In this document: in pieces, positions 15,669 through 39,790 of the stretch
How positions within the stretch are numbered: the stretch's first letter is position 1
Layout of the letters: each line of letters begins with the position of its first letter
The notes under the pieces: generated by a model
Told to the model about the DNA's origin: nothing
Database searches by the model: none
The model's input: only the letters and a program-made list of their open reading frames with translations
Assembly: GCA_009914755.4 (NCBI GenBank)
Contig: CP086569.2
Span: 11,424,001 to 11,488,000 of the forward strand
DNA length: 64,000 nt
Direction of reading: 5' to 3'
From: the human T2T-CHM13v2.0 reference genome, Homo sapiens
Made by a program: the position numbers and the translations under genes

Positions 15669-16037
<369 letters not shown>

Positions 16038-21078: not shown

Positions 21079-24000
21079 TCAATCTATCATTGATGGGCAT
21101 TTGGGTTGGTTCCAAGTCTTTGTTATTGTGAACAGTCCTGCAATAAACATACATGTGCATGTGTCTTTATAGTAGAATGATTTATAATCCTTTGGGTATA
21201 TACCCAGTAATGGGATTGCTGGGCCAAACGGTATTTCTAGTTCTAGATCCTTGAGGAATAGCCACACTGTCTTCCACAATGGTTGAACTAATTTACACTC
21301 CCACCAACAGTGTAAAAGCCTTCCTATTTCTCCACACTCTCTCCAGTATTTGTTGTTTCCTGACTCTTTAATTTTCGCCATTCTAACTGGCATGAGATGG
21401 TATCTCACTGTGGTTTTGATTTGCATTTCTCTAATGACTAGTGATGATGAGCTTTTTTTATAAGTTTGTTGGTTGCATAATTGTCCTCTTTTGAGAAGTG
21501 TCTGTTCACATCCTTTGCCCACTTTTCATTGGGGTTGTTTTATCTTGCAAATTTGTTTAAGTTCTTTGTAGATTCTGGATATTAGCCCTTTGTCAGATGG
21601 ATAGATTGCAAAAATTTTCTCGCATTTTGTAGGTTGCCCGTTCACTCTGATAGTTTCTTTTGCTGTCCAGAAACTCTTTAGTTTAATTAGGTCCCATTTG
21701 TCAATTTTGGCTTTTGTTGCCTTTGTTTTTGGTGTTTTGGTCATGAAGTCTTTGCCCATGTCTATGTCCTGAATGGTATTGCCTAGGTTTTCCTCTATGG
21801 TTTTTATGGCTTTAGGTCTTATGTTTAAGTCTTTAACCCATCTTGAGTTAATTTTTGTATAAGGTGTAAGGAAAGGATCCAGTTTCAGCTTTCTGCCTAT
21901 GGCTAGCCAGTTTTCCCAACACCATTTATTAAATAGGGAATCCTTTCCCCAGTGCTCGTTTTTCTCAGGTTTGTCAAAGATCAGATGGTTGTAGATGTGT
22001 GGTGTTATTTCTGAGGCCTCTGTTCTGTTCCTTTGATCTATATATCTGTTTTCGTACCAGTACCATGCTGTTTTGGTTACCGTAGCTTGTAGTATAGTTT
22101 GAAGTCAGGTGGCATGATGCTTCCAGCTTTGTTCTTTTTGGTTAGGATTGTCTTGGCTATTCGGGCTCTTTTTTGATTCCATATGAAATTTAAAGTATAT
22201 TTTTCCAATTCGTGGAGAAAGTCAATGGCAGTTTAATGGGGATAGCAGTGAATCTATAAATTACTTTGGGCAGTTGGTCACTTTCACGATACTGATTCTT
22301 CTTATCTATGAGCATGGAATGATTTTCCATTTGTTTGTGTCCTCTCTTATTTCCTTGAGGAGTGGTTTGTAGTTCTCCTTGAAGACATCTTTCACATCCT
22401 TGTAAGTTGTATTCCTAGTTATTTCATTCTTTTTATAGCAATGGTGAATGGGAGTTCACTCACAGTTTGGCTCTCTGTTTGTCTGTTATTGGTGTATAGG
22501 AATGCTTGTGATTTTTGCACATTGATTTTGTATCCTGAAACTTTGCCGAAGTTGCTTATCAGCTTAAGGAGATTTTGGGCTGAGATGATGGGGTTTTCTA
22601 AATATACAATCATGTCATCTGCAAACAGAGACCATTTGACTTCCTCTTTTCCTAATTGAATACCCTTTATTTCTTTCTCTTGCCTGATTGCCCTGGCCAG
22701 AACTTCCAATACTATGTTGAATAGGAGTAGTGAGAGAGGGTATCCTTGTCTTGTGCTGATTTTCAAAGGGAATGCTTCCAGTTTTTGCACATTCAGTATG
22801 TTACTGGCTGTGGGTTTGTCATAAATAGCACTTACTATTTTGAGATACGTTCCATCAATACCAGTTTATTGAGAGTTTTTAGCATGAAAGGTTGTTGAAT
22901 TTTGTCAAAGGCCCTTTCTGCATCTATTGAGATAATCATGAAGTTTTTGTCATTGGTTCCCTTTATGTGATGGATTACATTTATTGATTTGCATATGTTG
23001 AACCACTCTTGCATCCCAGGGGTGAAGCCGACTTGATCATGGTGGACAAGCTTTTTGATGTGCTGCTGGATTCAGTTTTCCAGTATTTTATTGAGGATTT
23101 CTGCATCAATGTTCATCAGGGATATTGGTCCAAAATTTTCTCTTTTTGTTGTGTCCCTGCGAGGTTTTGGTGTCAAGGTGATGCTGACCTCATAAAATGA
23201 GTTAGGGAGGATTCTCTCTTTTTCTATTGTTTGGAATAGTTTCAGAAGGAATGGTACCAGCTCCTCTTTGTACCTCTCGTAGAATTCGGCTGTGAATCCA
23301 TCTGGTCTTGGAATTTTTTTGTTGGTAGGCTATAATTAATGCCTCAATTTCAGAACTTGTTATTGGTCTATTCAGGAATTTCACTTCTTCCTGGTTCAGT
23401 CTTGGTAGTATTCTCTGATGATAATTTGTATTTCTGTGGGATCAGTGGTGATATCCCCTTAATCATGTTTTATTGCATCTATTTGATTCTTCTCTCTTTT
23501 CTTCTTTATTAGTCTGGCTAGTGGTCTGATTTGTTGATCTTTTCAAAAAAACAGTTCCTGGATTCATTGATTTTTTGAAGGGTTTTTCGTGTCTCTATCT
23601 CCTTCAGTTCTGCTCTGATCTTATTTGTGTCTTGTCTTCTGCTAGCTTTTGAATTTGTTTGTTATTGCTTCTCTAGTTCTTTTAATTTTGATGTTAAGGT
23701 GTCAATTTTAGATCTTTCCTGCTTTCCCTTGTGGACATTTAGTGCTATAAATTTCCCTCTACACACTGCTTTAAATGTGTTCCAGAGATTCTGGGACGTT
23801 GTGTCTTTGTTCTCATTGGTTTCGAAGAACATTTTTATTTCTGCCTTCAATTCTTTATTTACCCAGTAGTCACTCAGGAGTAGGTTACCCAGTTTCCATG
23901 TAGTTGTGAGGTTTTGAGTGAGTTTCTTAATCCTGCATACTAATTTGAATGCATTGCGGTCTGAGAGACTGTTTGTTATGATTTCCATTCTTTTGCATTT

Positions 24001-24545
24001 GCAGAGGAATGTTTTACTTCCAATTATGTGGTCAATTTTAGAATAAGTGCAATGTGGTGCTGAGAAGAAGGTATATTCTGTTGATTTGGGGTGGAGAGTT
24101 CTGTAGATATCTTTTAGGTCCACTTGGTCCAGAACTGAGTTCAAGTCCTGGATATTCTTGTTAATTTTCTGTCTCATTGATCTAATATTGACAATGGAGT
24201 GTTAAAGTCTCCCACTATTATTGTGTGGGAGTCTAAGTCTCTTTGTAGGTCTCTAAGAACTTGCTTTATGAATCTGAGTGCTCCTGTATTGGGTGCATAT
24301 ATGTCTAGGATAGTTAGCTCTTCTTGTTGCATTGATCCCTTTACCATTATGTAATGCCCTTCTTTGTCTCTTTTGATCTCTGTTGGCTTAAGATTTGTTT
24401 TATCAGAAACTAGGATTGCAACCTCTGCTTTTTGTTGCTTTCCGCTTGCTTGGTAAATGTTCCTCCATCCCTTTATTTTGAGCCTATGTGTATGAGATGG
24501 GTCTCCTGAGTACAGCACATTGATGTGTCTTGACTCTTTATCCAA
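21079..24545 (-). pseudogene. L1 ORF2 (endonuclease-RT-Cys domain), split into >=5 fragments by stops and frameshifts
   Basis: [18 protein letters not shown] and [71 protein letters not shown]-terminus: [77 protein letters not shown]. Confidence 0.85.
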
Positions 24546-25015
24546 TTTGCCAGTCTGTGTCTTTCAATTGGGGGCATTTAGCTCATTTACATTTAAGGTT
24601 AATATTGTTATGTATGAATTTGATCCTGTCATTATGATACTAGCTGGTTATTTTGCTCATTAGTTGATGCAGTTTTTTCATAGTGTCAATGGTCTTTATA
24701 ATTTGGTATGTTTTTGCAGTGGCTGTTACCAGTTGTTCCTTTCCATGTTTAGTGCTTCCTTCAGGAGCTCTTGTAAGTCAGGCCTGGTGGTGAAAATATC
24801 TCTCAGCATTTGCTTGTAAAGGATTTTATTTCTACTTCAATTATGAAGCTTAGTTTGGCTGGATATGAAATTCTGGCTTGAAAATTCTTTTCTTTAGGAA
24901 TGTTGTATATTGACCCCCACTCTCTTCTGGCTTGTAGGCTTTCTGCCAAGAGATCCACTGTTAGTCTGATGGGCTTCCGTTTGTGGGTAACTCAACCTTT
25001 CTCTCTGGCTGTCCT

Positions 25016-25718
25016 TTATATTTTTTCCTTCATTTCAACCTTGGTGAATCTGATGATTTTGTGTCTTGGGGTTGCTCTTCTTGAGGAGTATCTTAGTGGT
25101 GTTCTCTGTATTTCCTGAATTTGAATGTTGGCCTGTCTTGCTAGGTTGGGGAAGTTCTCCTGGATAATATCCTTGAGAGTGTTTTCCAACTTGGTTCCAT
25201 TCTCTCTCTCACTTTCAGGTACACGAATCAAACATAGATTCAGTGTTTTAACATATTCCTCTATTTCTTGGAGGCTTTGTTCATTTCTTTCACTCTTTTT
25301 TCTCTAATCTTGTCTTCTTGCTTTATTTCATTGAGATGATCTTCAATCTCTGATATTCTTTCTCCTGCTTGATTGATTCAGCTATTGATACTTGTGTATG
25401 CTTCATGAAGTTCTTGTGCTGGGTTTTTCAGCTCCATCAGGTCATTTATATTCTTCTCTAAACTGGTTATTCTAGTTAACAATTCGTCCTACCTTTTTTT
25501 TTCAGGCTCTTAGCTTCCTTGCATTGGGTTAAAACACGCTCCTTTAGCTTGGAGGAGTTTGTTATTACCCTCCTTCTGAAGCCTACTTCTGTCAATCCAT
25601 CAAACTCATTGTCTGTCCAGTTTTGTTCCCTTGCTGGTGGGGAGTTGTGGTCTTCTGGAGGAGAAGAGGCATTCTGGCTTTTGGAGTTTTCAGCCTTTTT
25701 GCACTGGTTTCTCCCCAT
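25016..25718 (-). pseudogene. L1 ORF1 (two fragments)
   Basis: The N-terminus reads MGRNQCKKAENSKSQNASSPPEDHNSPPAREQNWTDNEFDGLTEVGFRR. The C-terminal part reads VPESERENGTKLENTLKDIIQENFPNLARQANIQIQEIQRTPLRYSSRRATPRHKIIRFTKVEMKEK. Confidence 0.85.
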
Positions 25719-26759
25719 CTTTGTGGATTTATCTACCTTTGGTCTTTGATGTTGGTGATGTTGATACTATTCCTTTATGTTTGTTAGCTTTCCTTCTACC
25801 AGTCAGGTCCCTCTGCTGCAGGTTTGCTCGAGTTTGCTGGAGGTCCACTCCAGACCCTGTTTGCCTGGGTATCACCAGTGGAGGCTCAGTTGGAAATGCA
25901 TGAACCACCTGCCTTCTGTGTTGATCTCACTGGGTGCTGCAGACCGGAGCTGTTCCTATTCAGACATCTTGCCAACTCTCCTGTAATACTTTTATGAATG
26001 GGTGTAGTCCTATCTTCTCAAGGTCCCCAAATAACTTGAGGTTCCTGGGCCCGTCAGAAAGTGACATTCTTTACTTCTTACCACAAAGACAGCAACTTTG
26101 TAAAGGACCCTTGTAGACAAGACACCAAGCCAGTCATTCTAAGGGGCTTTGCATTGGTGCTATAAAGTCAACCTCAATTCCTTAAAGTGGTCTGGTTGTA
26201 TCTGCCGTTCGAGTTAAAGCCTTTATAAAATAAACAGTGTCTCCAATTGAATCCTGTTACCAAAAACAGATTCTTATTGAAATTATGCAAGTAATTATAT
26301 TGCCATAATTTAGGAATGCTCACGAATGGCTTCTGAATTCTGGAGAAATCAGTTAGAGAGACAGATAAATGGCTAAATTTTTGTTCAAAATGTAGTTTTT
26401 CTAACGTAGGGTAAGTTAAAAATAGCTGAAAAGAAAAAAATTCTTGACTTTGGAAAACAAAACATAAAGAGAATCAACAATGTTTCCAATGGAAGGGCCA
26501 TGAATAAAATCTTTTCCTTCTTTTATAAGTTCAGTCCAATGTAACTAAATCTTGTTCTGCTTGATTTCAAATAGCAATTCTCATTCAGTTTTTTGTGTTT
26601 TGCTTGATTTCAATTGGAAATTCTCATTCAGCTTTTTAGAGTCCTGGAAGATTTTCCTAGTCCAATGGTATGATCCCCAAAGTTATCTGAAACCATATTT
26701 AAGAGAACTTGTCAGAGTCCTTTCCATTAAAAGTAATTTAGATGATAGCTGATTGTAAA

Positions 26760-27105
26760 GGCTTTTTTTTTTTTTTGAGACATGGCCTGGTTCTATCACT
26801 CAGGATGGAGTGCAGTGGCATGATCTTGGCTCACCACAATCTCTCCCTCCCAAACTCAAGCCATCCTCCTACCTCAGCCTCCGAAGTAGTTGGGACCATA
26901 GACATGCACCATCATGCTGGCTAATTTTTGTATTTTTGTAGAGACAGGGTTTTACCATGTTGCCCAGGATGCTTTCAAACTTCTGAGTTCAATCAATTCA
27001 CCCACCTCGGCCTTGTAAAGTGCTGGGATTTTTACACGTGTGAGCCACCATGCCCTGCACCACGCCCAGCACCGTGCCCTGCACAGCCTCCAGCAGCACG
27101 CCCGG
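26760..27105 (-). mobile_element. Alu SINE with tandem expansion at its 5' end
   Basis: Poly(T) head. The tail reads gagccaccatgccctgcaccacgcccagcaccgtgccctgcacagcctccagcagcacgcccggcc, so the ~12-nt 5'-terminal motif is present in three imperfect copies. Confidence 0.8.
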
Positions 27106-27478
27106 CCTATAAAGCGTTTTAGAGAAGAACTTTAAACTATCACCGTGGATGACAAAAACTTAGAATATCCTTTGGTTAAAATCCAGTAGAAGTTCTCGAC
27201 CTGCGAGAAAATTTAGTTATTTCTATTATATGTAGCATTTTAAGATAACAGCCAGAATCATGACTGACGGCAACACATCAGATCCATCAGACTTCCACAA
27301 ATTTTATATAATCTTTAGAATATTTATATTAATAATATATCTATACATATACAACTTTAGAGAATATTTAACATCATCAAAATTATGACTGATACCATAT
27401 TAGATTTTTATAATTTATATAACATTTAAAATATTTATATTAATAATATACCTATAAATGTAACCAAAAGAAGATTTA

Positions 27479-27750
27479 GGCCAGGCACAGTGGCTCATGT
27501 CTGTAATCCCAACACTTTGGGAGGCCAAGTTGGACAGATCCATGAGCCTGGCCAACATGGAGAAATCTTGTCTCTACTAAAAATACAAAATTAGCCGGGC
27601 GTGGTGGCATGTATCTGTAGTCTCAGCTACTTGGGAGGTTGAGGCAGGAGAATCGCTTGAACCTTGGGGCAGAGGTTGCAATGGACCTAGATCACGCCAC
27701 TGCACTCCAGCCTGGGTGACTAAGCAAGATTCTGTCTCAGAGAAAAAAAA
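27479..27750 (+). mobile_element. Alu SINE with TSD aagatttag
   Basis: GGCCAGGCACAGTGGCTCATGTCTGTAATCCCAACACTTTGGGAGGCCAAG... The short-tail flanks aaagaagatttagg and aaaaaagatttagtg give the TSD. Confidence 0.85.
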
Positions 27751-27872
27751 AAGATTTAGTGTTACTTATCTTTTGGCAATGCTTCCCATACAATGTTATC
27801 AACTAAGATTTAGCAAAGATGTCAAAAAATTGAAAACATTTGACCGAAACTGAATGACAGTTTATTGTTTTT

Positions 27873-28168
27873 TATTTTATTATTTTTTTGAGACAGGGTC
27901 TCACCCTGTTGCCCAGGCTGGAGTGCAGTGGTGAAATCATGGCTCACTGCAGCCTCAACCTCCCAGGCTCAGGTGATCCTCCACCTTAGTCTCCCAAGTA
28001 GCCAGGACTATGAGCACTTGTTACGACACATAGCTAGCTTTTGTATTTTTAGTAGAGATGCGGTTTTGCCATTTTGCCCAGGCTGGACTTGAACTCCTGG
28101 GCTCAAGTGATTCACCCACCTTGGCCTCCCAAAGGGCTGGAATTACAGACATGAGCCGCTGCACACAG
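27873..28168 (-). mobile_element. Alu SINE
   Basis: tttttttgagacagggtctcaccctgttgcccaggctggagtgcagtggtgaaatcatggctcactgcagcctc... Confidence 0.9.
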
Positions 28169-29342
28169 CCACATGTCATTTTTAAATAACAGTCATTCAT
28201 TTAATTAGCATGACAACCAAAAGACATCAAAAGCAATGTAGAAGGTTACATGGATGTGATAACTGAAAACCCTCAGTTTTCCCAAGGAATTAAAAAAAAA
28301 AAAGGCAACACATGGATTATCTTGATAAAACCTAAAATTTTTATTACAGGCCAGTCATTTAAAGGGTAAAACTCCTGTGGCATAACTGTGTCTTCTTGCG
28401 GGAAGCTAATTTAAATCACTTGGAAGTCAATTCCGATGACAAGGAGACTTGAATTTAATTAGACATAGAAAGAGTGTGTCCAGGGTCATGAGTGAGCATA
28501 ATATTACAAAGGAATGTCAACAGGAAAACCAGAGCATAGAGCAGTGGGGAACCATAACTCACAATGATAGCAAGAAAGTTTCCTGGTTACATGAAGTAAT
28601 TAAGACATATTTAAAAGCCAAGAATATAAAATTAGACCTGATGAAAAAGCTGAAGGAGTTATCATCCCAGCCAAGCAGGAAACCCAAGCCTTTTATTCCT
28701 TCTCAAGAAGGAATAGGAGACAGTGATGTGATCTGTGAGTCATGTGTAACATGAAAGTACAGGAAAAGTTGAACTTCTGATATACAAATCTGAAAAGTTT
28801 TTATAGTAACAGATTTCAGGATTAAAAGTCAATATTTATTACCTCTTATTATGAGCAAATAAGTACATTAAGAAAACCTTGTTGTTTTAACCAAAATTTT
28901 TAGTTTTTTATCACTATGTTTTTAATATTATAACTAATTTAAATAAACTTTATAAACAATCTATCTGATCTCAATCAGTTTTGACCTAGATGTAAGATTT
29001 ACATAAACTTTTAATAACCTTGTATAATTTTTTCATCTTTCCCAACTTTTTATACACATTCACTTTTATCTATCTTTTTTATGCCTTCAATTTAAAATAA
29101 TCCTTAAAAATCTCTAAGCGAATTTACTTTCTCTGAAACAAAAACCGGTATACATTTTGCATACAGAATTGTTTCTCTTGTATCTAGTAGTCTTAATCAC
29201 ACATATCTAGCAAGATATTAACACTTAGTAACCCTTATTTTAAGAAAAAACCTAGGAAGCAAGAAATCTTGAATTGTCATATAGCAATATCTTACATATG
29301 AGAATAATTTCATAATTTTGAATTATGTGTTCCTAAAACATA

Positions 29343-29640
<298 letters not shown>

Positions 29641-29719
29641 TAAGTTTTAAATTGTAAATAACCCAGATATTTAATGAGTATCTATTATTTAATTTAACAT
29701 AACTAAAATTTCAAAAATA

Positions 29720-29990
29720 GGCTGGGCATGGTGGCTCACACCTGTAATCCCAACACTTTAGGAGGACAAGGCAGGAGTATCATGAAACCAGCCTGAGCAA
29801 AATAGTGAGATGCTGACTCTACAAAAAAAATAAAAGTTAGCTGACCATGGTGGTGTATGCCTGTAATTAACAGCTACATGGGAGGCTGAGGTGGGAGGAT
29901 ACCTTGAGCACAGGAGGTCAAGGTTGCAGTGAGCTGTGATCATGCCACTGCACTTCAGCCTGGGTGACAGACAGAGACATTGTCTCAAAA
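29720..29990 (+). mobile_element. Alu SINE with ~14 bp TSD
   Basis: The TSD aaatttcaaaaata(g/c) lies at 29706-29719 and 29990-30003. Confidence 0.9.
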
Positions 29991-30474
29991 AAATTTCAAA
30001 AATACATTAAGATGTCTTGTATAGACATTTATCCATTTACATTTACTTATTTTTGACAGTTTATCTAGAGTATTTGTGAGAACTGAGGTATTGGACAAAG
30101 GTATTCATCATTTCTAGGTTATTTTCTTGTTAACCACGTTATAGCCTGTGAATATCAGCTGTTCATGTAAGTGAGGACTTCAAAGTTAAATACATGGGTA
30201 TTTTACCAATATTTCAGAAAATTCCATTATTTTTGTTCAACAAACCATATTAAATTGGTCTTATGTATTTAAAAAATCACATAAACAAATATTCTTTTTT
30301 TCCTGTGTTTATAGCTTTATAACCTTCATGCCAAACCCTAGCACCTTAAAATATCTAGCAAATGTAAATATAAAACACAGTCTAAAATGTATGCTGACAA
30401 GTCTGAAGAGATTTCTATTTTTATTTTATCAATACTTTTTAAATTATTTGTATTTATAAAAGAACTCTTTTGTC

Positions 30475-30788
<314 letters not shown>

Positions 30789-31030
30789 AATTGTTTCATT
30801 CTTTTGTTTTTCTTCAGCCAAGTAACCTTGAATTAGTAACACCACAGACAGTAAGTCTTATCTCAACACCAGTAGACAGATCAGCAGATTCAAAGTAGGC
30901 AGGGAAAAAAAAATAGATAGGCAAAAGAACTGAGACTTTTTCACTTTAGGGTTTTTTAAAATAGTAACTATTTGAGTTCTGAATTTTCTTTCATGTAATT
31001 TGGCCATCAGGTTTAAAGTGTGCACTAGAG

Positions 31031-31334
31031 GTCAGGTGCAGTGGCTCATGTGTGTAATCCAAACACTATCGGAGGCTGAGGCAGGTGGATCACTTGAGGC
31101 CAGGAGTTTGAGACCAGCCTGGCCAACGTGACAAAACCCCATCTCTACTGAAAATACAAAAGTTAACTGGGTGTGGTAGTGTGCACCTGTAGTCCCAGCT
31201 ATTCAGGAGGCTGAGGCAGGATAATTACTCAAACCTGGGAGGCGGAGGTTGCAGTGAGCCACGATTGTACCACCATACTCCATCCTGGGCAACAGAGCAA
31301 GACTCTGTGTCAAAAAGAAAAAGGAAAAAAAAAG
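31031..31334 (+). mobile_element. Alu SINE (first of a tandem pair)
   Basis: ggtcaggtgcagtggctcatgtgtgtaatccaaacactatcggaggctgaggcaggtggatcacttgagg... Confidence 0.9.
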
Positions 31335-31356
31335 TATATATATATATATATGTATA

Positions 31357-31682
<326 letters not shown>

Positions 31683-32399
31683 CTAGAATGGTCCATAATA
31701 TATAGCCAGCTCGAGTCCCAGAAAACCTAGCAAGCTTAAGGTTAGAGCTTCTCATTTTGGCCTTTTCAAGATTAAATCTCCTTTAGTAGGCCCTTCCCCT
31801 CTAGGGAGGTACTTGCCAGAGCGCTGCCTGAAGTTGGTTTTCTGATGCCCTGTTGTTTCTGTTCTGAATGGTTTATTTCTCATTATAAGAGCTCAGCAAA
31901 GCAGGCAGAGTTAAAAAGCAGAGACATGAAGGCTTTAAAATCATGGACTTCACTCCTACACTGAATCTCAGTTCCCCAGAAAGACAGAAACACCATGGGA
32001 CCACAGCAAAGGCAGAAGGAGGAGTTAGAGAGGGAGGTGGACAGAACAACAAACAGGAGTTGGCTTTCATTTTTTCACGCGTGCCATTTTCTTTAGGTTT
32101 TTCTAGTTTATGGAGTCTCTTTGTTCCAGTTGAGCACACAGATAAACTAGAGATCTCACAAGGCTTTTGCTGAGAACATCAAAGCCTTTAACCTCTGTTG
32201 GGCCAAATATTTAGACCAAAAATATAGACAGACACACAAAAGCCAGAACCGGACCAGATTGAGTAGCTCAGTGGCTACAGCTTTTATTCCCTTTATTCTT
32301 TAAGGATATGAACTCAAACCAGATTCAGGGTTCTAACCCAGCCAGGACCCCCCTGGGGTGAAACTGAAATCCCACCGTCTAGACAAGGTTGGGGGTCTT

Positions 32400-32698
<299 letters not shown>

Positions 32699-32820
32699 TG
32701 CTTGTCCTTTTCATTTAATCCTGATCTCCGAATACAGGAGAGTAGCTGATTTGGTGTTCACTAACAAGCACAGAAGATTTGTTACATTTACAGTGTCATT
32801 CTTGGCAAAACCTGAAGTTT

Positions 32821-33034
32821 TGCCTCCCGGGTTCACGCCATTCTCCTGCCTCAGCCTCCTGAGTAGCTGGGACTATAGGCGCCCGCCACCTCACCCAGTT
32901 AATTTTTTGTATTGTTAGTATAGACGGGGTTTCGTCATGTTAGCCAGGATGGTCTCAATCTCCTGACCTTGTGATCCGCGCACCTCGGCTTCCCACAGTG
33001 CTGGGATTACAGGAGTGAGCCACCGCTCCCAGCC
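32821..33034 (-). mobile_element. Partial Alu (lacks its 3' portion)
   Basis: cctcccgggttcacgccattctcctgcctcagcctcctgagtagctgggactataggcgcccgccacc ... gagccaccgctcccagcc. Confidence 0.8.
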
Positions 33035-33121
33035 AGAAGCTCTAATTTCAATGATGATTGTGCTTTTTCTCTCTTCCTCAGCATCTGGCTCATGATAAAA
33101 TTTCAGGTGTCTTGATGGTAT

Positions 33122-33343
33122 CTAAATCAGTTGTTGATTTGGTCCTGGAGAAACACAAGCATAACCTCTATGCCAAGTTATAATTTTACCTATTTCCCAA
33201 CTTTTTGTTATTGGATCTCTCCACCAAACCAGTTGTTCTGCTTCTGTCTTTGCAGCTGGTTTCTGTAGATGCTGTTCAGCTGCTGGTAACATCTGGCCTT
33301 TGGGCAGTCTCAAAAATTTGAAAGTTAATAATGCAAGATTCAA
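33122..33343 (-). pseudogene. Retroviral integrase C-terminus (pol 3' end), HERV-K-like
   Basis: ours: LNLALLTFKFL...AAEQHLQKPAAKTEAEQLVWWRDPITKSWEIGKIITWHRGYACVSPGPNQ. HERV-K(HML-2) pol: [70 protein letters not shown]. Confidence 0.8.
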
Positions 33344-33399
33344 TTGTGTATGGGCTATCCCATAATCCCTGTTTCTCCCTCTTTTTTTGTTTTTATTAT

Positions 33400-34260
33400 C
33401 GGTTGTTCATCTGTATGAAATCTTAACTGAGCATTTTCAATTAACTGTGTGGAATGACCCATGTATGAAGAATCAGAAATCACATTAACAGGCATATCAA
33501 AAGCAGTCAACACCTCAATTACAGCTACAAGCTCTGCCTTTTGAGCTGAAGTATAGGGTGTCTGGAAAACTTTAGCTTTTGATCCAGAATAAGAACCTTT
33601 ACCATCACTAGACCCATCTGTGAAACAATGAAAACACTTAGCAGGCTGCAGGTTGTTTACTGCAGGAATTGTAAATGCAAACCTTTCACAGTCTTGCTCA
33701 GCTAAAAGGGTAGTAAAGAAACAGTCTTTTAAATCTGTGACTATTAAAGGCCAATTTTTTGGAATTATAGTAGAGAAGGGAATCCTGGCTGTTATATTTC
33801 CATAGGTTGTATAACTGAATTGATGGCTCTTAAGTCAGTTAACATTCTCCATTTACCTGATTTTTTCTTAATTATGAAAACTGGAGAATTCCAAGGGGAA
33901 AATGTTGGAGCTATGTGCCCATTTTCTAATTGTTCAGTAACTAATTTCTCTAAAGCATCCAGTATCTCTTTGCTTAGCAGCCATTATTCTATCCAAATTG
34001 GCTTATCTGTTAACCATTTTAAAGGTATAGGTTCTGGAGGCTTAACTATGGCCACCATCAAAAATGTTATCCTAATCTTTGGCAGGAACTTTGTCTTTCC
34101 GTTTGAAGCAGTTCTTTCAAAACTTGCAATTTTTTTTCTACTCCTATACCAGGGACATGCCCCATTTCGTGCATCATATGTTGACTTTGAGGGCTGTATT
34201 ATTGTTATGGAATTAGAACTTGTGCTCCCCATTGTCATAATAAATCTCTCCCCCATAAAT
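33400..34260 (-). pseudogene. Pro C-terminus (G-patch) and RT N-terminus joined directly to RNaseH start by an internal deletion
   Basis: ...[39 protein letters not shown] is the PR/RT boundary. The reverse complement of ~33560-33700 gives [49 protein letters not shown]. This is the RT box [32 protein letters not shown] running straight into the RNaseH start FTDGSS, so the RT palm, thumb and connection are deleted. Confidence 0.65.
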
Positions 34261-34453
34261 TTATAGGTACAGAAGTTGCAATTGGTTGAACAGTCCCAGG
34301 TTGTCCATTGGGCCCTTCACAATGCAAAGTATAGCTACTCTGATACACTTCTGGAGCTTTAACAGTTTCCACTGTGTTAAATTGAGTGGGCTGAATTGGC
34401 CACATGGACGGCCAGTGCTGTAGAGAAATAATTGAAATGTCCACTCCTACCAA
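34235..34453 (-). pseudogene. Retroviral aspartic protease (HERV-K-like)
   Basis: ours: GVDISIISLQHWPSMWPIQPTQFNTVETVKAPEVYQSSYTLHCEGPNGQPGTVQPIATSVPINLWGRDLL. HML-2 PR: GADVSIIALNQWPKNWPKQKAVTGLVGIGTASEVYQSTEILHCLGPDNQESTVQPMITSIPLNLWGRDLL. Confidence 0.85.
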
Positions 34454-34589
34454 AAAAAAAAATAGTATCTACCAAACCTTTAAAGTTCTTTCCCTGGATA
34501 GTTATTTCACAGGTAGGATGTTTATCAGTAATTTGATTTAACCAATAAGCTGCCTTGCCTTTTTTGTTTGTGCTTCCAAATCCTCCGGT

Positions 34590-34859
34590 TCATTTAATTT
34601 CACTTTTTCCCATTCCCACATATGGCACATTCAGGAGCTGTGCTATGAGCACTCCTGGCTGTGCTTTCCAGGGAACAGAAGTAGATATCACAATTTGAAT
34701 TTCTTCATTGTAATCTGAATCAATGACTCCAGTGTGTATTTGTACCCCTTTTAAACTTAAACTAGACCTTCCTAAAAGTAATACCATTGTCCCTGCTCGC
34801 AACGGTCCACAGACTCCTGTTGGGGCCTTTTGCGGGGGTTCCCCAGGCAGAAGGCTCAC
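34590..34859 (-). pseudogene. Retroviral dUTPase (N-terminal domain of the betaretroviral pro ORF)
   Basis: GTMVLLLGRSSLSLKGVQIHTGVIDSDYNEEIQIVISTSVPWKAQPGVLIAQLLNVPY contains the dUTPase motif-3 region (..GVIDSDY.GEI...). It lies between gag NC and PR, as in betaretroviruses. Confidence 0.7.
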
Positions 34860-34960
34860 AGCTTTTGTGCAGCATAGATCTACTGCAGCACTATGGGCTG
34901 TGGTGGGGGACAGATAACGTATGGGGGTGAGGGAATGGCCTGAGATGGAAATGCCCTGGT

Positions 34961-35248
34961 TTAGAACAGGGCCTGGGATGGACCCCTCAGGGAGTTTCCC
35001 AAAATCGGGTTCCCTTCTTTATCAAACTTAGAGTGACACTGATTAGCCCAAAGTTTTCCTTTTTTACATTTTGGACATATTTCAGGATCAGCAGTTTTGT
35101 TTTTTCCCCTATCTGGTGGCCTGACTCGGTGATTTTTTTTTTTTACATTCTTTTTAGTATGACCATGCTTCCCACAGTTAAAACAAGCTCCAGGAAATAG
35201 AGTATTTCCTTTATCCACTCTCAGTCTTGCCATTGCCTGTGCCAACAA
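34961..35248 (-). pseudogene. gag nucleocapsid with two CCHC zinc knuckles (first one mutated)
   Basis: CFNCGKHGHTKKNV...CPKCKKGKLWANQCHSKFDKEGNP. HML-2 has CFNCGKPGHFARDC...[24 protein letters not shown]. Confidence 0.8.
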
Positions 35249-35249
35249 A

Positions 35250-36330
35250 GTAGCTTTATGTAGATTATCTCTGATATCATCACAGGCCTTGTTATAATCA
35301 ACTAAATGTGCTTTCCCTCTGATAGGTCGCAGAGCAGCCTGGCCATAAGTATTAGCATTGTCAAAACCAATAACTGCAACACTATATCCTAAGCAGCCAA
35401 ATCTGCAATCATCTTTTTAGGAGACTCCTGTAACCAAGCTATAAAATCCACATATGGTTCTCTTGGTCCCTGTTTTATAGCACTAAAGGAAGGGTATTGT
35501 TCTCCACATGAAGTGATTTATTCCAAGCTCTAATGCACACTCCTCTAAGCTGTTCTATGGCATCATCCTGCATGACCACTTGTGCATGTAAACCAGCCCA
35601 GCCACCAACCCCCAGAAGTTGGTCTGCAGTTATATTAATTTGAGGTTGGGCCCAGGCATTGCGAGCAGCCTGAATGGAAGCTTCATCTGCCTACTAAGTT
35701 TTAAATTGTAATAACTGAGCAGGAGTTAGACAAGCTAGAGTAAAAGTGTCCCAGTCAGTAGGAATCATCCGACTGGAAACAGCAACATTCTTTAACAGTC
35801 CCATTTCAAAAGGAGAACCTGTTCCATACTGATTTATAGCTTGTTTAATTTTTTTGAGTAATTTAAAAGGAAAAGGCTCAAATGTAGCTATAATATTTCC
35901 CTGTTGATCTGGGGGGTGTATTCAAACAGGGAACTGCCAAGCCTCTAAATCCCACTTTTGTCTAGCTTGCTGTATTCCTGCCTGAATAGAACTAAGAGCA
36001 GTCGCTCAAGGCGCTGCTCGAACAGTCACCAGGGCAACTACTTTTCACCCAGTGTCCTCCAGAAAAGAAAGATCTGGAGGGTCGTTTTCTTTAAAATAGT
36101 AATGAGGGTGTGCAGAAGGATAGGGATGAACCTCTCCCTCCTTTTCTGCTTTAGCTTTAGGTGACAAGTAAACCTGGTCTGTAACCTCTACTGTTACTTT
36201 GTTATACTCTCCTTCCTCCTCATCAGTATGAAAAAGTTCCAAGGTAGAACGAACCACAGCCCACACTTGTCCTATTGCTACCCTGATGCTTCCGAGCTCC
36301 CCTTCTTACTCACCACGGGGATTGCTTTAA
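35250..36330 (-). pseudogene. gag matrix/capsid region of element A (degenerate)
   Basis: It is contiguous upstream of the NC fragment. It is homologous at the nucleotide level to the second gag copy at ~37260-38540 at an estimated 65-70% (by eye). No long intact ORF. Confidence 0.5.
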
Positions 36331-36402
36331 TAGTACTCTGGTGTCCTCCAGCTAGTTCCACTTTCTCCAATCGTTGCTCCAGCGATCCTTTGACCTGTAT
36401 TC

Positions 36403-36421
36403 GAGCCCCCATGAATGGGCA
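36403..36421 (-). promoter_or_regulatory. Primer-binding site of element A, tRNA-Lys-related
   Basis: The minus strand reads TGGTGCCCATTCATGGGGGCTCGAATAC, 2 nt after the LTR end ...CTCAGCA. It is related to the tRNA-Lys(CTT) PBS TGGCGCCCAACGTGGGGCTCGAACCC but carries indels. Confidence 0.4.
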
Positions 36422-36427
36422 CCACTT

Positions 36428-36905
36428 GCTGAGACCAGGTCGGTTGGAGAGACCCTAACCCAGCAGCACTAGAGGAATTAAAGACGCACACACAGAAATA
36501 TAGAGGTGTGAAGTGGGAAATCGGGGGGGGGGGGGGCGTCTTACAGCCTTCAGAGCAGAGTCCTGAACAGAGATTTACCGACGTGTTTATTAACAGCAAG
36601 CCAGTCATTAGCATTGTTTCTATAGATATTAGATTAACTAAAAGTATCCCTTATTCTTAAGGCACAGATCACTCATGCTATTGTTTGTGGCTTAAGAATG
36701 CCTTTAAGTAGTTTTCCACCCTGGACGGGCCAGGTATTCCTTGTCCTCATTCCAGTAAACCCACAACTTTCCAGCGTGGGTGTTATGGCCATCATGAACA
36801 TGTCACAGTGCTGCAGAGATTTTGTTTATGGCCAGTTTTGGGGCCAGTTTATGGCCGGATTTGAGGAGGCTTGTTCCCAACAGTTCCTCAGGGTAAGGGT
36901 GCCCT
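36428..36905 (-). mobile_element. 5' LTR of element A (~480 bp; specific HERV-K/HML family not determined); contains a C14 (plus-strand G14) homopolymer
   Basis: Minus-strand reading: TGAGGAACTGTTGGGAACAAGCC...GTTAATAAACACG...CCCCCCCCCCCCCC...CTGGTCTCAGCA. It runs from a TG start, through an AATAAA signal, to a CA end. The PBS and gag follow it. Confidence 0.55.
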
Positions 36906-36909
36906 AACT

Positions 36910-38540
36910 CCTGTGGGGACCTTCTTTGGTGGCTCCCCAGGAAGTAAGGAGATGGGAATTGTGCTGTAGAGGTCTACAGCAGCACTGCTTGCTGAGGCGG
37001 GGGACAATTGCTGTACATTTGTAAGGGCAGTGGCTGTGCTGGGTATGCCTCAGTTTGTTGAGGGACTTGAGGCGGGTCCCTCTTCCTATTTCCTGAAAGA
37101 GGTTGTCCATCTTTGCTAAATTTAGAATGACACGGACTTGCCCGGTGATAGCCTTTCTTACACCAGGGACGTACATTGGGACTTTTCTGTTGATTGACGG
37201 TAGTAGTTTTCGTCTTTTGAATTCCTTTCTACATTCCTTTCTTGTGTCCAATTTGCCCATAATTAAGGCAAGAGCCTGAGAAATGAAGCATATTTTTTCT
37301 TACTCTTAATCTAGCCACAGCTTGAGCTAAAAGAATAACCTTATGTAAGTTATCTCCAATGCCATCGCAAGCCTTAATATATTTAGTTAAATGGGCCCTC
37401 TCTGTCTGGGATCTAATAGCAGTTTGACACTCTGCATTAGCATTATTGTATGCAAGAAGCTGTATTACAACATCCTGAGCTGTTTTGATCATTTACGGCT
37501 TTATACACAGCCTCTTGGAGCTGAGCAATAAAATTAATATATGGTTCTTTAGGTCCTTGTCAGACAGAACTGAAATAAGGATACTTTTCCCCTGTAACAT
37601 TTATCCTTTTCTATGCATGTAAGCACATGAAGCACAGCTGAACAATGGCAACATCTTCCATTAGTGCTTGATTCTCTAATCAACCCCAATTAGGGCCAAC
37701 TCATATTAACTGATCAAAGAAAACAGGCACAGGTGGCTGCACTTGTGTGTTTTCTTTTGCCTGAGTTTGAGCTTCATCAGCCTACCAAGTTTTAAACTGC
37801 AAGTACTGAGATGGAGTGAGAACAGGTTTTGTCAAAGTATCCTAATTATATGGTAGTAATCTATTATCAAGAGCCATATTTTTAAATAAAGTTTGCACAA
37901 AAAGAGAGTTCAGTCCATATTGACTAATGGCTTGCTTAAATTCTTTAGTAACTTAAAAGAGAAAGCAGCCTAATTAGCTATATTCTGTCCTACTTGCTGG
38001 ATTATAGTAACGGGAAATTGCCATGTTTCAAGGTCTCCCTTGGCTTTAGCTTTTTAAATAGAATTTTGTCTACCACCACCAATTGCTCCAGGTTTTAATG
38101 TTGTAACTACAGGAGCAGTAAGTTTTTCAGCTAATTTATTTTCTCACCCATTTAGAGGAGAGAGAGGAGGTGGCCATTCACTTAATTCAGCAGGTGGAGC
38201 CAACGGGCTAGTAAAACATACTTTTTAAAGTTTTTCTTTCTTTTCTTTAATCTCCTCTGGTAGCTGCTCCCCACACTCAGAATTTGAAGTTAGTTTTTTA
38301 CACTCATCCTCCTCTTCCTCATCTGAGTCTGCCTCATTATCTGTTTGAAATGGCTCAAGGGCTGCCTTTATTAGTGCCCACACTGACCATACAGAAACTA
38401 GAATTTCTGCTCCATCTTTATATGCCTTTTAAAAAATATCTTCCAATTCTCTCCCATTCATCCAACTTCATAGTCCTTTGTTCTGGAAACCATGGGCAAA
38501 ACTGCTTTACTGTACTAAAGAGTGATAACAAATTCTAAGT
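36910..38540 (-). pseudogene. Second, diverged HERV-K-like gag (element B), fused at its 3' end (gag/pro junction) directly to the LTR of element A
   Basis: Capsid C-terminus to NC: IQLLAYNNANAECQTAIRSQTERAHLTKYIKACDGIGDNLHKVILLAQA...CLNYGQIGHKKG. HML-2 has IQLAYENANPECQ...YVKACDGIG. The NC second knuckle (..CKKGYHRASPCHSKF..) is readable in an alternative frame of ~37110-37190. Homology with element A ends abruptly at ~36908. Confidence 0.7.
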
Positions 38541-38636
38541 ACTAAATTTCATTCCCCATCTTTGTATGTCCTCGGGTGTCTTTTGATGTTGTGTCCTCTG
38601 CTTTCACATGCTCCAGCCTTCCTTCACCGGGTCTTT

Positions 38637-38654
38637 GTCACCCCATGTTGGGCG
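38637..38654 (-). promoter_or_regulatory. Primer-binding site of element B, tRNA-Lys(CTT) type
   Basis: The minus strand reads TGGCGCCCAACATGGGGTGAC. The canonical HERV-K PBS-Lys is TGGCGCCCAACGTGGGGC. Confidence 0.6.
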
Positions 38655-38943
38655 CCAGGAATGTTGGAGTGATCAGACCCAACACTAGATCATGGGGGTG
38701 ATGAAGTCCAGCAGAGTCAAAGGAATGAGAAAAAGACAGTTTGAGAGAGAAAGTGGGACCAGGAGACCATCACGAGTGTGGAGTCTGCAAAGTCCCCAAG
38801 CTCTGGGAGCCCACGCTATTTGTTGGTGCTCAAACAAACAGCTGGTGAGGATTTAGGGGTTGAAAGGAAACGGTGTATCAAGTGAATCAGAAACATATGG
38901 CCCTGCCTCAGCTTCTCTTCCAACACTCAGCTTTTCTCCCAAC
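38655..38943 (-). mobile_element. Short LTR (or R-U5 remnant) of element B
   Basis: Minus-strand reading: TGTTGGGAGAAAAGCTGAG...CAACAAATAGCGTGGGCTCCC...ACATTCC followed by the PBS. It is unrelated in sequence to the LTR of element A. Only ~290 bp. Confidence 0.4.
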
Positions 38944-38984
38944 ACATTCCCCTTATGAACAGGAATAAAATAGGGATGCTTGTT

Positions 38985-39790
38985 CTCACCACTCCTGTTT
39001 AACAAGTCCTAGCCAGAGCAATCAGGCAAGAGAAAGTGATAAAAGGCATCCAAATAGGAAATGAAGTCAAATTATCTCTCTTCACTGATTATATGATTCT
39101 ACACCTAGAAATCCCTAAAGACTGTGCCAAAAGACTCCTAGAACTGATAAAAAAAACCTTCAGCAAACTTTCAGGATTAAAAAAAATCAACATATAGAAA
39201 GAAGTATCATTTCTGTACACCAAAAATGTTTAAACTGAGAGGTAAATCAAGAGTGCAATCCTGTTTACAACAGCAACCCCCAAAATAAAATAAAAGAAAA
39301 GAAGAATATATCTAAGCAAGGAGGTAAAGGATATCTAAAAGGAGAACTACAAAACACTGCAGAAAGAAATCATAGATGACAAAGGAAATGGAAAACTATT
39401 CCATGCTCATGTATTAGAAAGATCGATATTTTTAAAATGGCTATACTGCCAAAAGCAATCTACACATTCAACACTATTCCTGTGAAACAACCAATGTCGT
39501 TTTTCACAGAATTAGAAAAAAATATATTCTAAATTTCATATGGATTTTTAAAGAGCCCAGACAACCAAAGGAAACCTAAGCAAGAAGAATGAAGCTGGAG
39601 ACATCACATTACTTGACTTCATACTATACCCTAAGGCCACAATAGACAAAATAGCATGGTAGCTATATGAAAACAGACACAAAGACCAATGAAACAGAAT
39701 AGAGAACCCCAAAATAAACATGCACCTACAGCCATCAGCTTTCCCAGGATAACACAAAGAGAGCCAAGTGGCACCTGCACATTACACTGT
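38985..39790 (+). mobile_element. Old L1 ORF2 fragment (plus strand) flanking the ERV locus
   Basis: Plus-strand translation: ..[75 protein letters not shown].. and ..[78 protein letters not shown]. Confidence 0.8.

What the first reader, a model, noticed from the sequence alone, without database searches (positions are those of the whole stretch)
33040..38943. Two diverged HERV-K-like elements joined head-to-tail: gag of element B runs straight into the 5' LTR of element A
Reading the minus strand, the order is LTR(B)-PBS(Lys)-gag(B)|LTR(A)-PBS-gag(A)-dUTPase-PR-G-patch-RT(deleted)-RNaseH-IN C-terminus. The two gag segments are clearly homologous but only ~65-70% identical by eye. The two LTRs and the two PBSs differ. 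This points to two different HML-like lineages rather than a tandem duplication. Homology between the copies stops exactly at the gag/pro junction of B, at ~36908, where the LTR of A begins. Either A integrated into B and the rest of B was later lost (no B pro, pol, env or 3' LTR appears beyond A), or a recombination or deletion fused them. A itself lacks env and a 3' LTR and is cut off by Alus at ~33040.
Basis: partly seen in the sequence, partly recalled or inferred. Interest (0 to 1): 0.55.

Follow-up and report, generated by a model that had tools for sequence, protein, structure and literature searches.

The report
Nested HML-3 provirus inside HML-1
This is an ordinary piece of primate "fossil virus" DNA: one ancient HERV-K-type retrovirus (HML-3) inserted itself into the protease gene of an older one (HML-1-like), later deletions removed everything downstream, and the resulting composite was afterwards copied several times together with its flanks.

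Summary
On the minus strand the order is: old L1 | LTR(B) 38944-38662 | Lys PBS | gag(B), running about 75 nt into dUTPase | LTR(A) 36882-36427 | PBS | gag-dUTPase-PR-RT(deleted)-RNaseH-IN C-terminus | AluY at 33034.

Corrections:
- The junction is at 36883|36882, inside pro, not at the gag/pro border.
- The two gag segments are 56% identical overall and 60-68% in CA/NC.

Tests against published references assign A to HML-3 (HERVK9/MER9), not HML-6 as I first recalled. B is HML-1-like.

B stops exactly at the first base of A's U3. In a family member that same sequence follows the polypurine tract. So A integrated into B; a random deletion or recombination is unlikely. Downstream there is no pol, env, 3' LTR or remainder of the L1. 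A breakpoint inside the AluY explains the loss.

Unexpectedly, the identical junction occurs in 11 human-derived metagenome contigs, giving 12 distinct haplotypes with the window. Several share the upstream flank and one shares the downstream truncation. The fusion therefore happened once and was later spread by segmental duplication.

Nested ERVs are well documented. Interest is low.

The parts
38945..39736 (+). Old L1 fragment (ORF2 3' region). This is the target into which provirus B integrated. L1 homology ends at the first base of LTR(B).
   Evidence: an L1 probe recalled from memory aligns at positions 1-766 to 39709..38945 and stops exactly at 38945; the window's own younger L1 (21984-22705) aligns to 39736..39004. 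No continuation of this L1 lies downstream of the composite.
38662..38944 (-). 5' LTR of element B (HML-1-like). It runs TGTTGGGAG...CCAACA and is 283 bp. It carries an internal deletion of about 300 bp relative to the full LTR seen in contig L051.
   Evidence: Sequence. L051 346-386 and 723-1029 match the two ends of this LTR; the LTR/leader part of the published HML1 putein rvnr1112 hits 38899..38548 only.
38640..38657 (-). Primer binding site of B: TGGCGCCCAACATGGGGT, tRNA-Lys(CTT) type.
   Evidence: It matches at 17/18 positions the entry TGGCGCCCAACATGGGGC = K (CTT) in the PBS table of Vargiu 2016.
36883..38639 (-). Internal part of B: leader, gag (ATG at 38559; MA, CA, NC with two zinc knuckles; several stops and frameshifts), and the first ~25 codons of pro/dUTPase (SAAVDLYST...GVRAPLP*GT). 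It ends at 36883.
   Evidence: Pfam hits Gag_p10, Gag_p24, Gag_p24_C and zf-CCHC_5. tblastn with A's polyprotein reaches residue 498, in dUTPase, at 36879. The best PDB hit is HERV-K Gag 8c9m, E 8e-93.
36427..36882 (-). 5' LTR of element A (HML-3 / MER9-type). It runs TGTTGGGAAC...TCTCAGCA and is 456 bp. It is 68 nt shorter than most family copies, which carry extra sequence between 36656 and 36654.
   Evidence: in L033 the same TGTTGGGAAC follows the PPT AAAGAAGGGGGGACA; family copies; it matches the LTR read-through tail of the hml3b consensus (E 1.5e-7).
36407..36424 (-). Degenerate Lys-type PBS of A: TGGTGCCCATTCATGGGG, followed by GCTCGAA.
   Evidence: Sequence. Family copies read TGGCGTCCATCGTGGGGGCTCGAA. 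Assignment to tRNA-Lys rests on resemblance to TGGCGCCCAACGTGGGGC.
34961..36275 (-). gag of A. The start is mutated (ATA GGA CAA) and is joined directly to the C-terminal end of MA, so the Gag_p10 domain is missing. CA and NC follow. A splice-donor-like GGTGAGTAAG lies just upstream, at about 36310.
   Evidence: Pfam hits Gag_p24, Gag_p24_C and zf-CCHC_5. The MA truncation is shared by all HML-3-like contigs. PDB hit 8c9m, E 5e-89.
34217..34916 (-). pro of A: dUTPase (34614-34916) and retroviral aspartyl protease (34217-34447). A possible G-patch remnant follows but was not confirmed.
   Evidence: Pfam dUTPase E 7e-16 and RVP E 2e-10. G-patch was not reported at E<=0.01.
33626..34060 (-). N-terminal third of RT. 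It ends at a deletion junction at 33626/33625.
   Evidence: it aligns to HERV-K RT 7sr6 residues 34-178, then jumps to about residue 470. Contigs L032 and L051 carry about 925 extra nt at this point.
33391..33625 (-). RNase H fragment. It is followed by a second deletion junction at about 33398/33380 that removes the integrase core.
   Evidence: Pfam RNase_H E 1.7e-8. L015 carries about 650 extra nt (integrase core) at this point.
33035..33380 (-). Integrase C-terminal domain and the end of pol. This is the last recognisable part of A.
   Evidence: Pfam IN_DBD_C at 33101-33229. Alignment to family copies.
32822..33034 (-). AluY inserted into the end of pol. The Alu itself is cut at about Alu position 228, with no poly(A) and no target-site duplication. 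This is the breakpoint of the event that removed the rest of A, the rest of B and the rest of the L1.
   Evidence: Sequence. No TSD partner found. The same ERV/Alu junction is present in contigs L015 and L040.
32400..32818 (-). Unrelated unit joined to the cut AluY: 117 bp, then a complete Alu, then poly(A). An inverted paralogue lies at window 122-542.
   Evidence: 84% identity overall and 91% in the 117-bp part.

Best explanation
This is a nested (secondary) retroviral integration that later decayed and was then copied. The proposed order of events is as follows.

1. An HML-1-like provirus (B) integrated into an old L1.
2. An HML-3 provirus (A; HERVK9 internal sequence with a MER9-type LTR) was inserted by integrase into B's pro gene, about 25 codons into the dUTPase domain. 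This separated B's 5' LTR-gag from the rest of B.
3. A lost most of RT and the integrase core through internal deletions, and B's LTR lost about 300 bp.
4. An AluY inserted into the end of A's pol.
5. A rearrangement with one breakpoint inside that AluY removed A's env and 3' LTR, B's pro-pol-env-3' LTR and the remainder of the L1. It joined the Alu stump to unrelated DNA.
6. The composite, together with at least 5 kb of upstream flank, was duplicated several times by segmental duplication. The same junction therefore exists in many diverged copies.

What is shown:
- The anatomy.
- The exact LTR-terminus junction.
- The family assignments of both elements: A indirectly, through a family member's env; B only moderately.
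- The absence of downstream ERV or L1 remnants.
- The shared junction and flanks in other copies.

What is inferred:
- The order of events.
- That the downstream loss was a single deletion.
- That the copies arose by segmental duplication.

The element has no evident present-day function. All reading frames are broken.
For: - Domain map of both elements.
- B's homology to A's dUTPase runs up to 36883-36879, and LTR(A) starts at 36882 with TGTTGGGAAC.
- In L033 the identical LTR start directly follows the polypurine tract AAAGAAGGGGGGACA. The junction is therefore the true U3 terminus.
- The LTR has imperfect terminal inverted repeats TG...CA.
- A belongs to HML-3. The env remnant of L033, which is about 92% identical to A at nucleotide level, scores 449+147 bits against the published hml3b consensus and 269+183+94 against hml3a. 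It scores no more than 157 against hml1a, 9a, 10a, 2a, 4a and 7a, and 48 against hml6b. LTR(A) matches the LTR read-through part of hml3b.
- B is nearest HML-1. The published HML1 Gag putein rvnr1112 hits B at 64%, and the copies of B in contigs at 67-71%. It hits HML-3-like copies at 50-62% and the ~43%-identity contigs presumed to be HML-2 at 45%. Its LTR/leader portion hits only LTR(B) and its leader. PBS(B) matches the Lys(CTT) entry at 17/18 positions.
- Published ages are HML-1 ~39 My and HML-3 ~36 My, which fits B being older than A (PMC3778440).
- There is no 3' LTR, pol, env or L1 continuation downstream.
- The junction ...CCCTGAGGAAC|TGTTGGGAACAAG is identical in 11 of 11 B-containing human-derived contigs. 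There are 12 distinct 400-bp haplotypes including the window.
- The same upstream flank is present in L015, L066, L037 and L001. The same downstream truncation is present in L040.
- Precedents: an HML10 provirus nested in HML9 at 19p13.2 (PMC5667498), and secondary integration as a common source of HERV mosaicism (PMC4724089).
Against: - The classical proof of a nested insertion cannot be obtained here. That proof would be A's 3' LTR followed by a target-site duplication and the continuation of B's pro. This part is deleted in the window, and no contig reaches it.
- B's next expected codons (..T V G..) resemble the LTR start TGTTGG. Up to about 6 nt at the junction are therefore ambiguous.
- The comparison contigs are low-coverage short-read metagenome assemblies and are partly chimeric. 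L015 runs through an Alu into 5S rDNA. L051 starts with an Illumina adapter. Copy number and the long-range structure of the other copies are therefore uncertain.
- No contig is identical to the window. It is not known whether the window is one of the human paralogues or comes from another primate.
- The HML-1 assignment of B rests on one published putein at 64-71% identity, not on a repeat library.
Confidence: 0.85

Rival explanations
1. Two independently integrated neighbouring proviruses were fused by a non-homologous deletion or recombination. That event removed B's 3' part and the DNA between the two elements.
For: B's 3' part is missing, and other deletions clearly occurred in this locus.
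Against: The breakpoint would have to fall exactly on the first nucleotide of A's U3. That is roughly a one-in-thousands coincidence. No trace of intervening host DNA is present.
Confidence: 0.06
2. A chimeric retroviral genome (HML-1 5' half plus HML-3) arose by template switching or read-through packaging. It spread by reinfection or retrotransposition, which would explain the many copies.
For: The junction is multi-copy. Vargiu 2016 reports mosaic HERVs that proliferated after recombination, and HML1 and HML3 are among the groups most often involved. HML-1/HERV-W hybrids with differing flanks are known (PMC3778440).
Against: - Every copy for which flank sequence is available (L001, L015, L037, L066) has the same L1 flank as the window, for up to 5 kb.
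- One copy shares the downstream Alu breakpoint.
- The composite contains a complete internal LTR with its own PBS. Vargiu's criteria count that against reintegration.
Confidence: 0.04
3. An internal or tandem duplication of a single HERV-K element, whose two copies then diverged.
For: The two segments lie in the same orientation and have colinear gag homology.
Against: - The gag segments are only 56% identical at nucleotide level and 51% at protein level. That is as far apart as each is from HML-2.
- The LTRs do not hit each other by BLASTN.
- Published references assign the two elements to different groups.
Confidence: 0.01

Closest known systems
HERV-K(HML-3) = HERVK9 internal sequence with MER9-type LTRs (Mayer & Meese 2002; Vargiu 2016 group 20030)
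   Same: Element A shares these features with the group:
- Betaretrovirus-like gag-pro-pol with dUTPase in pro.
- Two zinc knuckles.
- A Lys-like PBS.
- Close family members (91-97% nucleotide identity) that carry the hml3a/hml3b-type deleted env.
- An LTR that matches the LTR read-through of the hml3b consensus.
   Different: This copy lacks env and the 3' LTR, most of RT and the integrase core. Its gag start codon is mutated. Its LTR is 68 nt shorter than most family copies.
HERV-K(HML-1) = HERVK14 with LTR14A/B (Flockerzi 2005; Vargiu 2016 group 20010)
   Same: Element B shares these features with the group:
- A Lys(CTT) PBS.
- gag, LTR-U5 and leader closest to a published HML1 chain (rvnr 1112).
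   Different: Only the 5' LTR (with an internal deletion of about 300 bp), gag and about 75 nt of pro remain. Identity to the single available reference is moderate (64-71% at protein level). Subfamily (LTR14A or LTR14B) was not determined.
Secondary ('piggy-back') proviral integrations, e.g. the HML10 provirus inside an HML9 provirus at 19p13.2 (Grandi 2017, PMC5667498)
   Same: One HML provirus separates the 5' LTR and leading part of a pre-existing HML provirus from the rest of that provirus.
   Different: Here the host provirus's downstream part has been deleted altogether, and the composite was subsequently duplicated with its flanks.
HERV-K(HML-6)/LTR3, which was my own first recollection for element A
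   Same: It belongs to the same supergroup and has a similar LTR length.
   Different: Rejected by test. The env of A's family members is only 24-36% identical to the hml6 consensus, against 60-86% to hml3.

Membership tests
HERV-K (HML supergroup, betaretrovirus-like) | gag with Gag_p10/p24 and two CCHC knuckles, dUTPase and protease in pro, and closest solved relatives being HERV-K proteins | tested here: met
   Pfam scan. Best PDB hits are HERV-K Gag 8c9m (E 5e-89 for A, 8e-93 for B), far ahead of the next non-HERV-K retroviral Gag/capsid chains. HERV-K RT 7sr6 scores E 6e-88.
HML-3 (HERVK9/MER9), element A | Sequence similarity to published HML-3 reference sequences that exceeds similarity to the other HML groups | tested here: met
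   The test is indirect because A has no env. L033 is about 92% identical to A over gag-pol. Its env remnant scores 449+147 bits against hml3b and 269+183+94 against hml3a, no more than 157 against other groups, and 48 against hml6b. LTR(A) hits the LTR read-through of hml3b at E 1.5e-7.
HML-3 (HERVK9/MER9), element A | Lys-type PBS | tested here: inconclusive
   The site reads TGGTGCCCATTCATGGGG+GCTCGAA and is degenerate. Family copies read TGGCGTCCATCGTGGGGGCTCGAA. It resembles the Lys(CTT) PBS but has several changes and an indel.
HML-3 (HERVK9/MER9), element A | RepeatMasker/Dfam assignment to HERVK9-int and a MER9 subfamily | not testable with these tools
   No repeat library is available. 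The nucleotide consensus file of Vargiu 2016 is cut off before class II elements.
HML-1 (HERVK14/LTR14A,B), element B | Sequence similarity to a published HML-1 reference that exceeds similarity to other groups | tested here: met
   The HML1 Gag putein rvnr1112 hits B at 64% (183 bits) and B copies in contigs at 67-71%. It hits HML-3-like copies at 50-62% and the ~43%-identity contigs presumed to be HML-2 at 45%. Its LTR/leader part hits only 38899..38548. This rests on a single reference and the identity is moderate.
HML-1 (HERVK14/LTR14A,B), element B | Lys PBS | tested here: met
   TGGCGCCCAACATGGGGT matches the K(CTT) entry in Vargiu Table S6 at 17/18 positions.
HML-6 (HERVK3/LTR3), considered for A | HML-6-type env and ISD (LKNKLN/LQNKIN), and similarity to the hml6 consensus | tested here: not met
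   The env of family member L033 is 24-36% identical to hml6b (48 bits).
HML-2, considered for both elements | High identity to HML-2 Gag | tested here: not met
   Protein identity in CA-NC is 45.5% for A and 46.8% for B.
Nested (secondary) proviral integration | The host element is interrupted exactly at the terminal nucleotide of the inserted LTR | tested here: met
   B ends at 36883 and U3 of A starts at 36882 with TGTTGGGAAC. In L033 the same sequence follows the PPT.
Nested (secondary) proviral integration | The host element resumes after the inserted 3' LTR, with a short target-site duplication | tested here: inconclusive
   The 3' part is deleted in the window. Contigs L032 and L051 end inside a second LTR(A).
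Segmental duplication family | The same junctions and the same flanks occur in several mutually diverged copies | tested here: met
   There are 12 junction haplotypes. The upstream flank is shared for 0.14-5.2 kb in L001, L015, L037 and L066 at 93-99%. The downstream breakpoint is shared by L040. Chromosomal positions and true copy number cannot be tested here.

The most novel reading that the evidence does not exclude
The HML-1/HML-3 composite, with at least 12 kb of surrounding DNA, belongs to a multi-copy duplication family that has not been specifically described. The copy number might be high: these contigs rank among the longest in very poor, low-coverage assemblies of human-contaminated skin samples. 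A further possibility is that HML-3 units next to it form LTR-internal-LTR tandem arrays, suggested by circular 6.52-kb contigs and by a contig with two units 99.94% identical.
Probability: 0.12. Interest if true: 0.3.

Novelty: already known. Interest (0 to 1): 0.14.

Why it matters
It matters little beyond annotation. The locus shows how mosaic 'HERV chains' arise by secondary integration, deletion and segmental duplication. Such composites can be misread as recombinant viruses or misclassified. My own recollection of HML-6 for element A was wrong until tested. If the duplication family proved to be large and undescribed, it would interest people cataloguing segmental duplications or locus-specific HERV expression, because multi-mapping reads would be an issue. 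No new biology is implied.

Tried and rejected
- HML-6/LTR3 for element A, recalled from memory. Rejected by the env-consensus test.
- Matching primers from the HML6-c14 paper to A. No matches; uninformative.
- Full-text search for LTR k-mers in papers. Nothing found.
- Looking up the PBS 18-mers in the Vargiu tables to recover the chain number and locus. Not found; the master table is truncated.
- The nucleotide consensus file of Vargiu 2016. It is cut off before the HML groups.
- The Pisano 2019 (HML-6) and Flockerzi 2005 (HERV-K14) papers. Not held.
- Protein database search with A's polyprotein, hoping for named close relatives. It returned only 4 distant Gag hits.
- Scans of viral contigs and genome contigs for relatives. 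Nothing found.
- Exact-ORF look-up to place the window in a genome. Not on record.
- Rfam scan of the window. No family found.
- Searches for the target-site duplication partner of the AluY, and for the continuation of B after the junction. None found.
- A tandem duplication of one element. Rejected.
- Treating the tail of L015 as the undeleted 3' side of the locus. Rejected: it is 5S rDNA joined through an Alu, an assembly chimera.

Full report
**What is there**

The window is primate DNA, rich in Alus and L1s. Reading the minus strand from 39736 downwards gives the following order.
- An old L1 fragment lies at 39736-38945. Its sense strand is the window's plus strand.
- LTR(B) occupies 38944-38662. 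It is 283 bp and runs TGTTGGGAG...CCAACA.
- The PBS of B is TGGCGCCCAACATGGGGT.
- The leader and gag of B follow, with ATG at 38559. Pfam finds Gag_p10, Gag_p24, Gag_p24_C and zf-CCHC_5.
- B continues for about 25 codons into pro/dUTPase (SAAVDLYST...GVRAPLP*GT) and ends at 36883.
- LTR(A) occupies 36882-36427. It is 456 bp and runs TGTTGGGAAC...TCTCAGCA.
- A degenerate PBS follows (TGGTGCCCATTCATGGGG), then a splice-donor-like GGTGAGTAAG.
- gag of A runs 36275-34961. It lacks the Gag_p10 domain.
- dUTPase lies at 34916-34614 and protease at 34447-34217.
- The RT N-terminus follows. It matches HERV-K RT 7sr6 residues 34-178 and then jumps to about residue 470.
- RNase H lies at 33627-33391, followed by a second deletion junction at about 33398/33380.
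- The integrase C-terminal domain lies at 33229-33101, and pol ends at 33035.
- An AluY starts at 33034.

All reading frames are broken. G-patch and RVT_1 were not called by Pfam at E<=0.01.

**Checking the observation**

The two gag segments are colinear homologues.
- BLASTN HSPs are 64-71% identical.
- A global alignment gives 56% overall, 60-68% over CA/NC, and near-random identity in MA/pp.
- At protein level in CA-NC, A vs B is 51%, A vs HML-2 is 45.5% and B vs HML-2 is 46.8%. The three are about equidistant.
- The two LTRs share only their terminal few bases and do not hit each other by BLASTN at E<=1.
- B's homology to A's polyprotein reaches residue 498, in dUTPase, at window 36879.

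**What the two elements are**

No repeat library was available, so I tested against published sequences.

My first recollection, that LTR(A) is LTR3 (HML-6), was wrong. A metagenome scan with a CA-NC alignment of A, B and HML-2 returned 80 loci, mostly contigs from human skin metagenomes, which means human host DNA.
- Most carry A-like gag-pro-pol at 91-97% nucleotide identity.
- One of them, L033, retains the env remnant and 3' LTR.
- That env scores 449+147 bits against the hml3b consensus of Vargiu et al. 2016 (Additional file 4) and 269+183+94 against hml3a.
- It scores no more than 157 bits against hml1a, 2a, 4a, 7a, 9a and 10a, and only 48 against hml6b.
- The hml3b consensus reads through into the LTR, and that part matches the window's LTR(A) at E 1.5e-7.
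- A is therefore HML-3 (HERVK9/MER9).

The truncated MA (ATG GGA CAA joined to GTG TGG GCT) is shared by all HML-3-like contigs. It is a family trait, not a local deletion.

For B, the evidence is as follows.
- The HML1 Gag putein rvnr 1112, printed in Vargiu's Additional file 2, hits B at 64%. It hits B's copies in contigs at 67-71%.
- The same putein hits HML-3-like copies at 50-62%, and at 45% the contigs that share ~43% identity with A, which I presume to be HML-2.
- The portion of that putein that is really translated LTR-U5, PBS and leader hits only 38899-38548.
- PBS(B) matches the K(CTT) entry TGGCGCCCAACATGGGGC at 17/18 positions.
- B is therefore HML-1-like, with moderate confidence.
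- Its 283-bp LTR is an internally deleted version of the longer LTR seen in L051.

**How the junction arose**

B stops exactly where A's U3 begins. In L033 the same TGTTGGGAAC directly follows the polypurine tract AAAGAAGGGGGGACA. So 36882 is the canonical LTR terminus.

A random deletion or recombination hitting that exact nucleotide is very unlikely. Integrase-mediated insertion of A into B's pro is the economical explanation. Published ages fit B being the older element: HML-1 about 39 My and HML-3 about 36 My (PMC3778440).

The classical confirmation cannot be made here. That confirmation would be A's 3' LTR, a target-site duplication and the rest of B. The evidence that this part is missing:
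- The window holds no second copy of either LTR.
- It holds no other gag/pro/pol similarity.
- No retroviral Pfam domain occurs in open segments of at least 35 aa from 25980-33040 after Alu-like segments were removed.
- The interrupted L1 does not continue anywhere downstream.

The AluY at 33034 is itself cut at about Alu position 228 (window 32822). It has no poly(A) and no target-site duplication. It is joined to a unit of 117 bp, a complete Alu and poly(A), which has an inverted paralogue at window 122-542.

A rearrangement with a breakpoint inside that Alu therefore most simply accounts for the loss of A's env and 3' LTR, B's pro-pol-env-3' LTR and the rest of the L1. That it was a single event is an inference.

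**The unexpected part**

The composite is not unique to this locus.
- All 11 contigs that contain B-like gag also contain the identical junction ...CCCTGAGGAAC|TGTTGGGAACAAG.
- The 400 bp around the junction fall into 12 different haplotypes, including the window. They differ at 4-29 positions.
- L015, L066, L037 and L001 also carry the window's upstream flank. It extends to window 43763 in L015 and to 44186 in L066, at 93-99% identity. The contigs differ from one another even inside the old L1.
- L040 is colinear with window 36373-31790 at 96.8%. That stretch includes the cut AluY, the 117-bp/Alu unit and the unique DNA beyond it.
- The RT and integrase deletion junctions are each shared by subsets of contigs.

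So the integration happened once, and the locus was later copied together with its flanks by segmental duplication. Retrotransposition of a chimeric genome is disfavoured because the flanks are shared.

Caveats:
- These are low-coverage short-read assemblies and are partly chimeric. L015 runs through the Alu into 5S rDNA. L051 begins with an Illumina adapter and an HML-1 env-PPT-LTR.
- Copy number and long-range structure therefore remain uncertain.
- No contig is identical to the window. The best segment identities are 94.5-98.2%, and the best value over the 400 bp around the junction is 98.75%. I cannot say whether the window is one human paralogue or comes from another primate.

**Comparison with what is known**

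Secondary integration of one HERV into another, followed by deletions, is a documented and common source of mosaic HERV loci (Vargiu 2016, PMC4724089). A direct precedent is the HML10 provirus that splits an HML9 provirus at 19p13.2 (Grandi 2017, PMC5667498). Duplication of ERV-bearing segments is also ordinary.

The finding is real and correctly read by the first stage. It is a known kind of thing and is presumably already annotated by RepeatMasker in the source genome.

**Verdict**
- Observation: confirmed, with small coordinate corrections.
- Interpretation: supported. The nested-integration branch is favoured at about 0.85.
- Novelty: already known.
- Interest: about 0.14.

The only mildly open points are the size and location of the duplication family, and whether the circular 6.52-kb HML-3 contigs reflect real tandem arrays.

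Noticed in passing
window 122-542 (+) and 32400-32818 (-): A discrete unit of 117 unique bp, a complete Alu and an A-rich tail occurs twice in the window, in inverted orientation. Identity is 84% overall and 91% in the 117-bp part. Homology starts and ends at the same points in both copies. It could be an Alu retrotransposed with 5' flanking sequence, or a small duplicon.
   Followed up: partly
L015 11690-14001: The tail of this metagenome contig is the human 5S rDNA repeat: the 5S gene in reverse, a GC-rich spacer, and an Alu with a period of about 2.24 kb. It is joined to the ERV locus through the shared AluY, so this is an assembly chimera. It is a warning about using such contigs for long-range structure.
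   Followed up: yes
L006, L012, L013, L052, L054 (6574-6583 nt), L021 (5024 nt), L033 (13143 nt): Several HML-3 contigs are circular, with 55-nt terminal overlaps and a unit of about 6.52 kb (LTR plus internal sequence). L033 holds two consecutive units that are 99.94% identical. This is either a real tandem LTR-int-LTR-int array in the human genome or a collapsed assembly of the HML-3 family.
   Followed up: partly
L051 1-345: The contig begins with an Illumina adapter (GGAGTTCAGACGTGTGCTCTTCCGATCT). It then runs through the 3' end of an HML-1 env and a PPT into a full-length LTR of the LTR(B) type. That LTR is about 300 bp longer than the window's LTR(B).
   Followed up: partly
window 32200-32397 (-): Directly after the 117-bp/Alu unit lies an LTR-like R-U5 stretch: AATAAA signals and an ending ...GGCCCAACA. 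Its family is unknown. It has no similarity to LTR(A) or LTR(B) and no second copy in the window.
   Followed up: partly
window ~20900-25985 (-): A long, relatively young L1 lies on the minus strand. It is 88-90% identical to an L1PA-like probe, and its 5' UTR starts near 25980. ORF2-derived open frames lie at 21079-21522 and 23662-24177. It is unrelated to the old L1 that was hit by provirus B.
   Followed up: partly
window 15246-17351 (-): A second old L1 fragment has the same orientation and covers the same ORF2 region as the one flanking LTR(B). It is about 69% identical to that flank L1 (about 71% to the recalled probe). It covers both sides of the insertion point, so it is a separate copy and not the missing continuation.
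   Followed up: yes
window 2292-2799 (+) and 18995-19501 (-): A GC-rich repeat of about 510 bp is present twice in inverted orientation at 73% identity. Its family was not identified.
   Followed up: no
window ~31640-31690 and ~31340-31365: A (CA)n and a (TA)n microsatellite lie next to a pair of Alus downstream of the composite.
   Followed up: no
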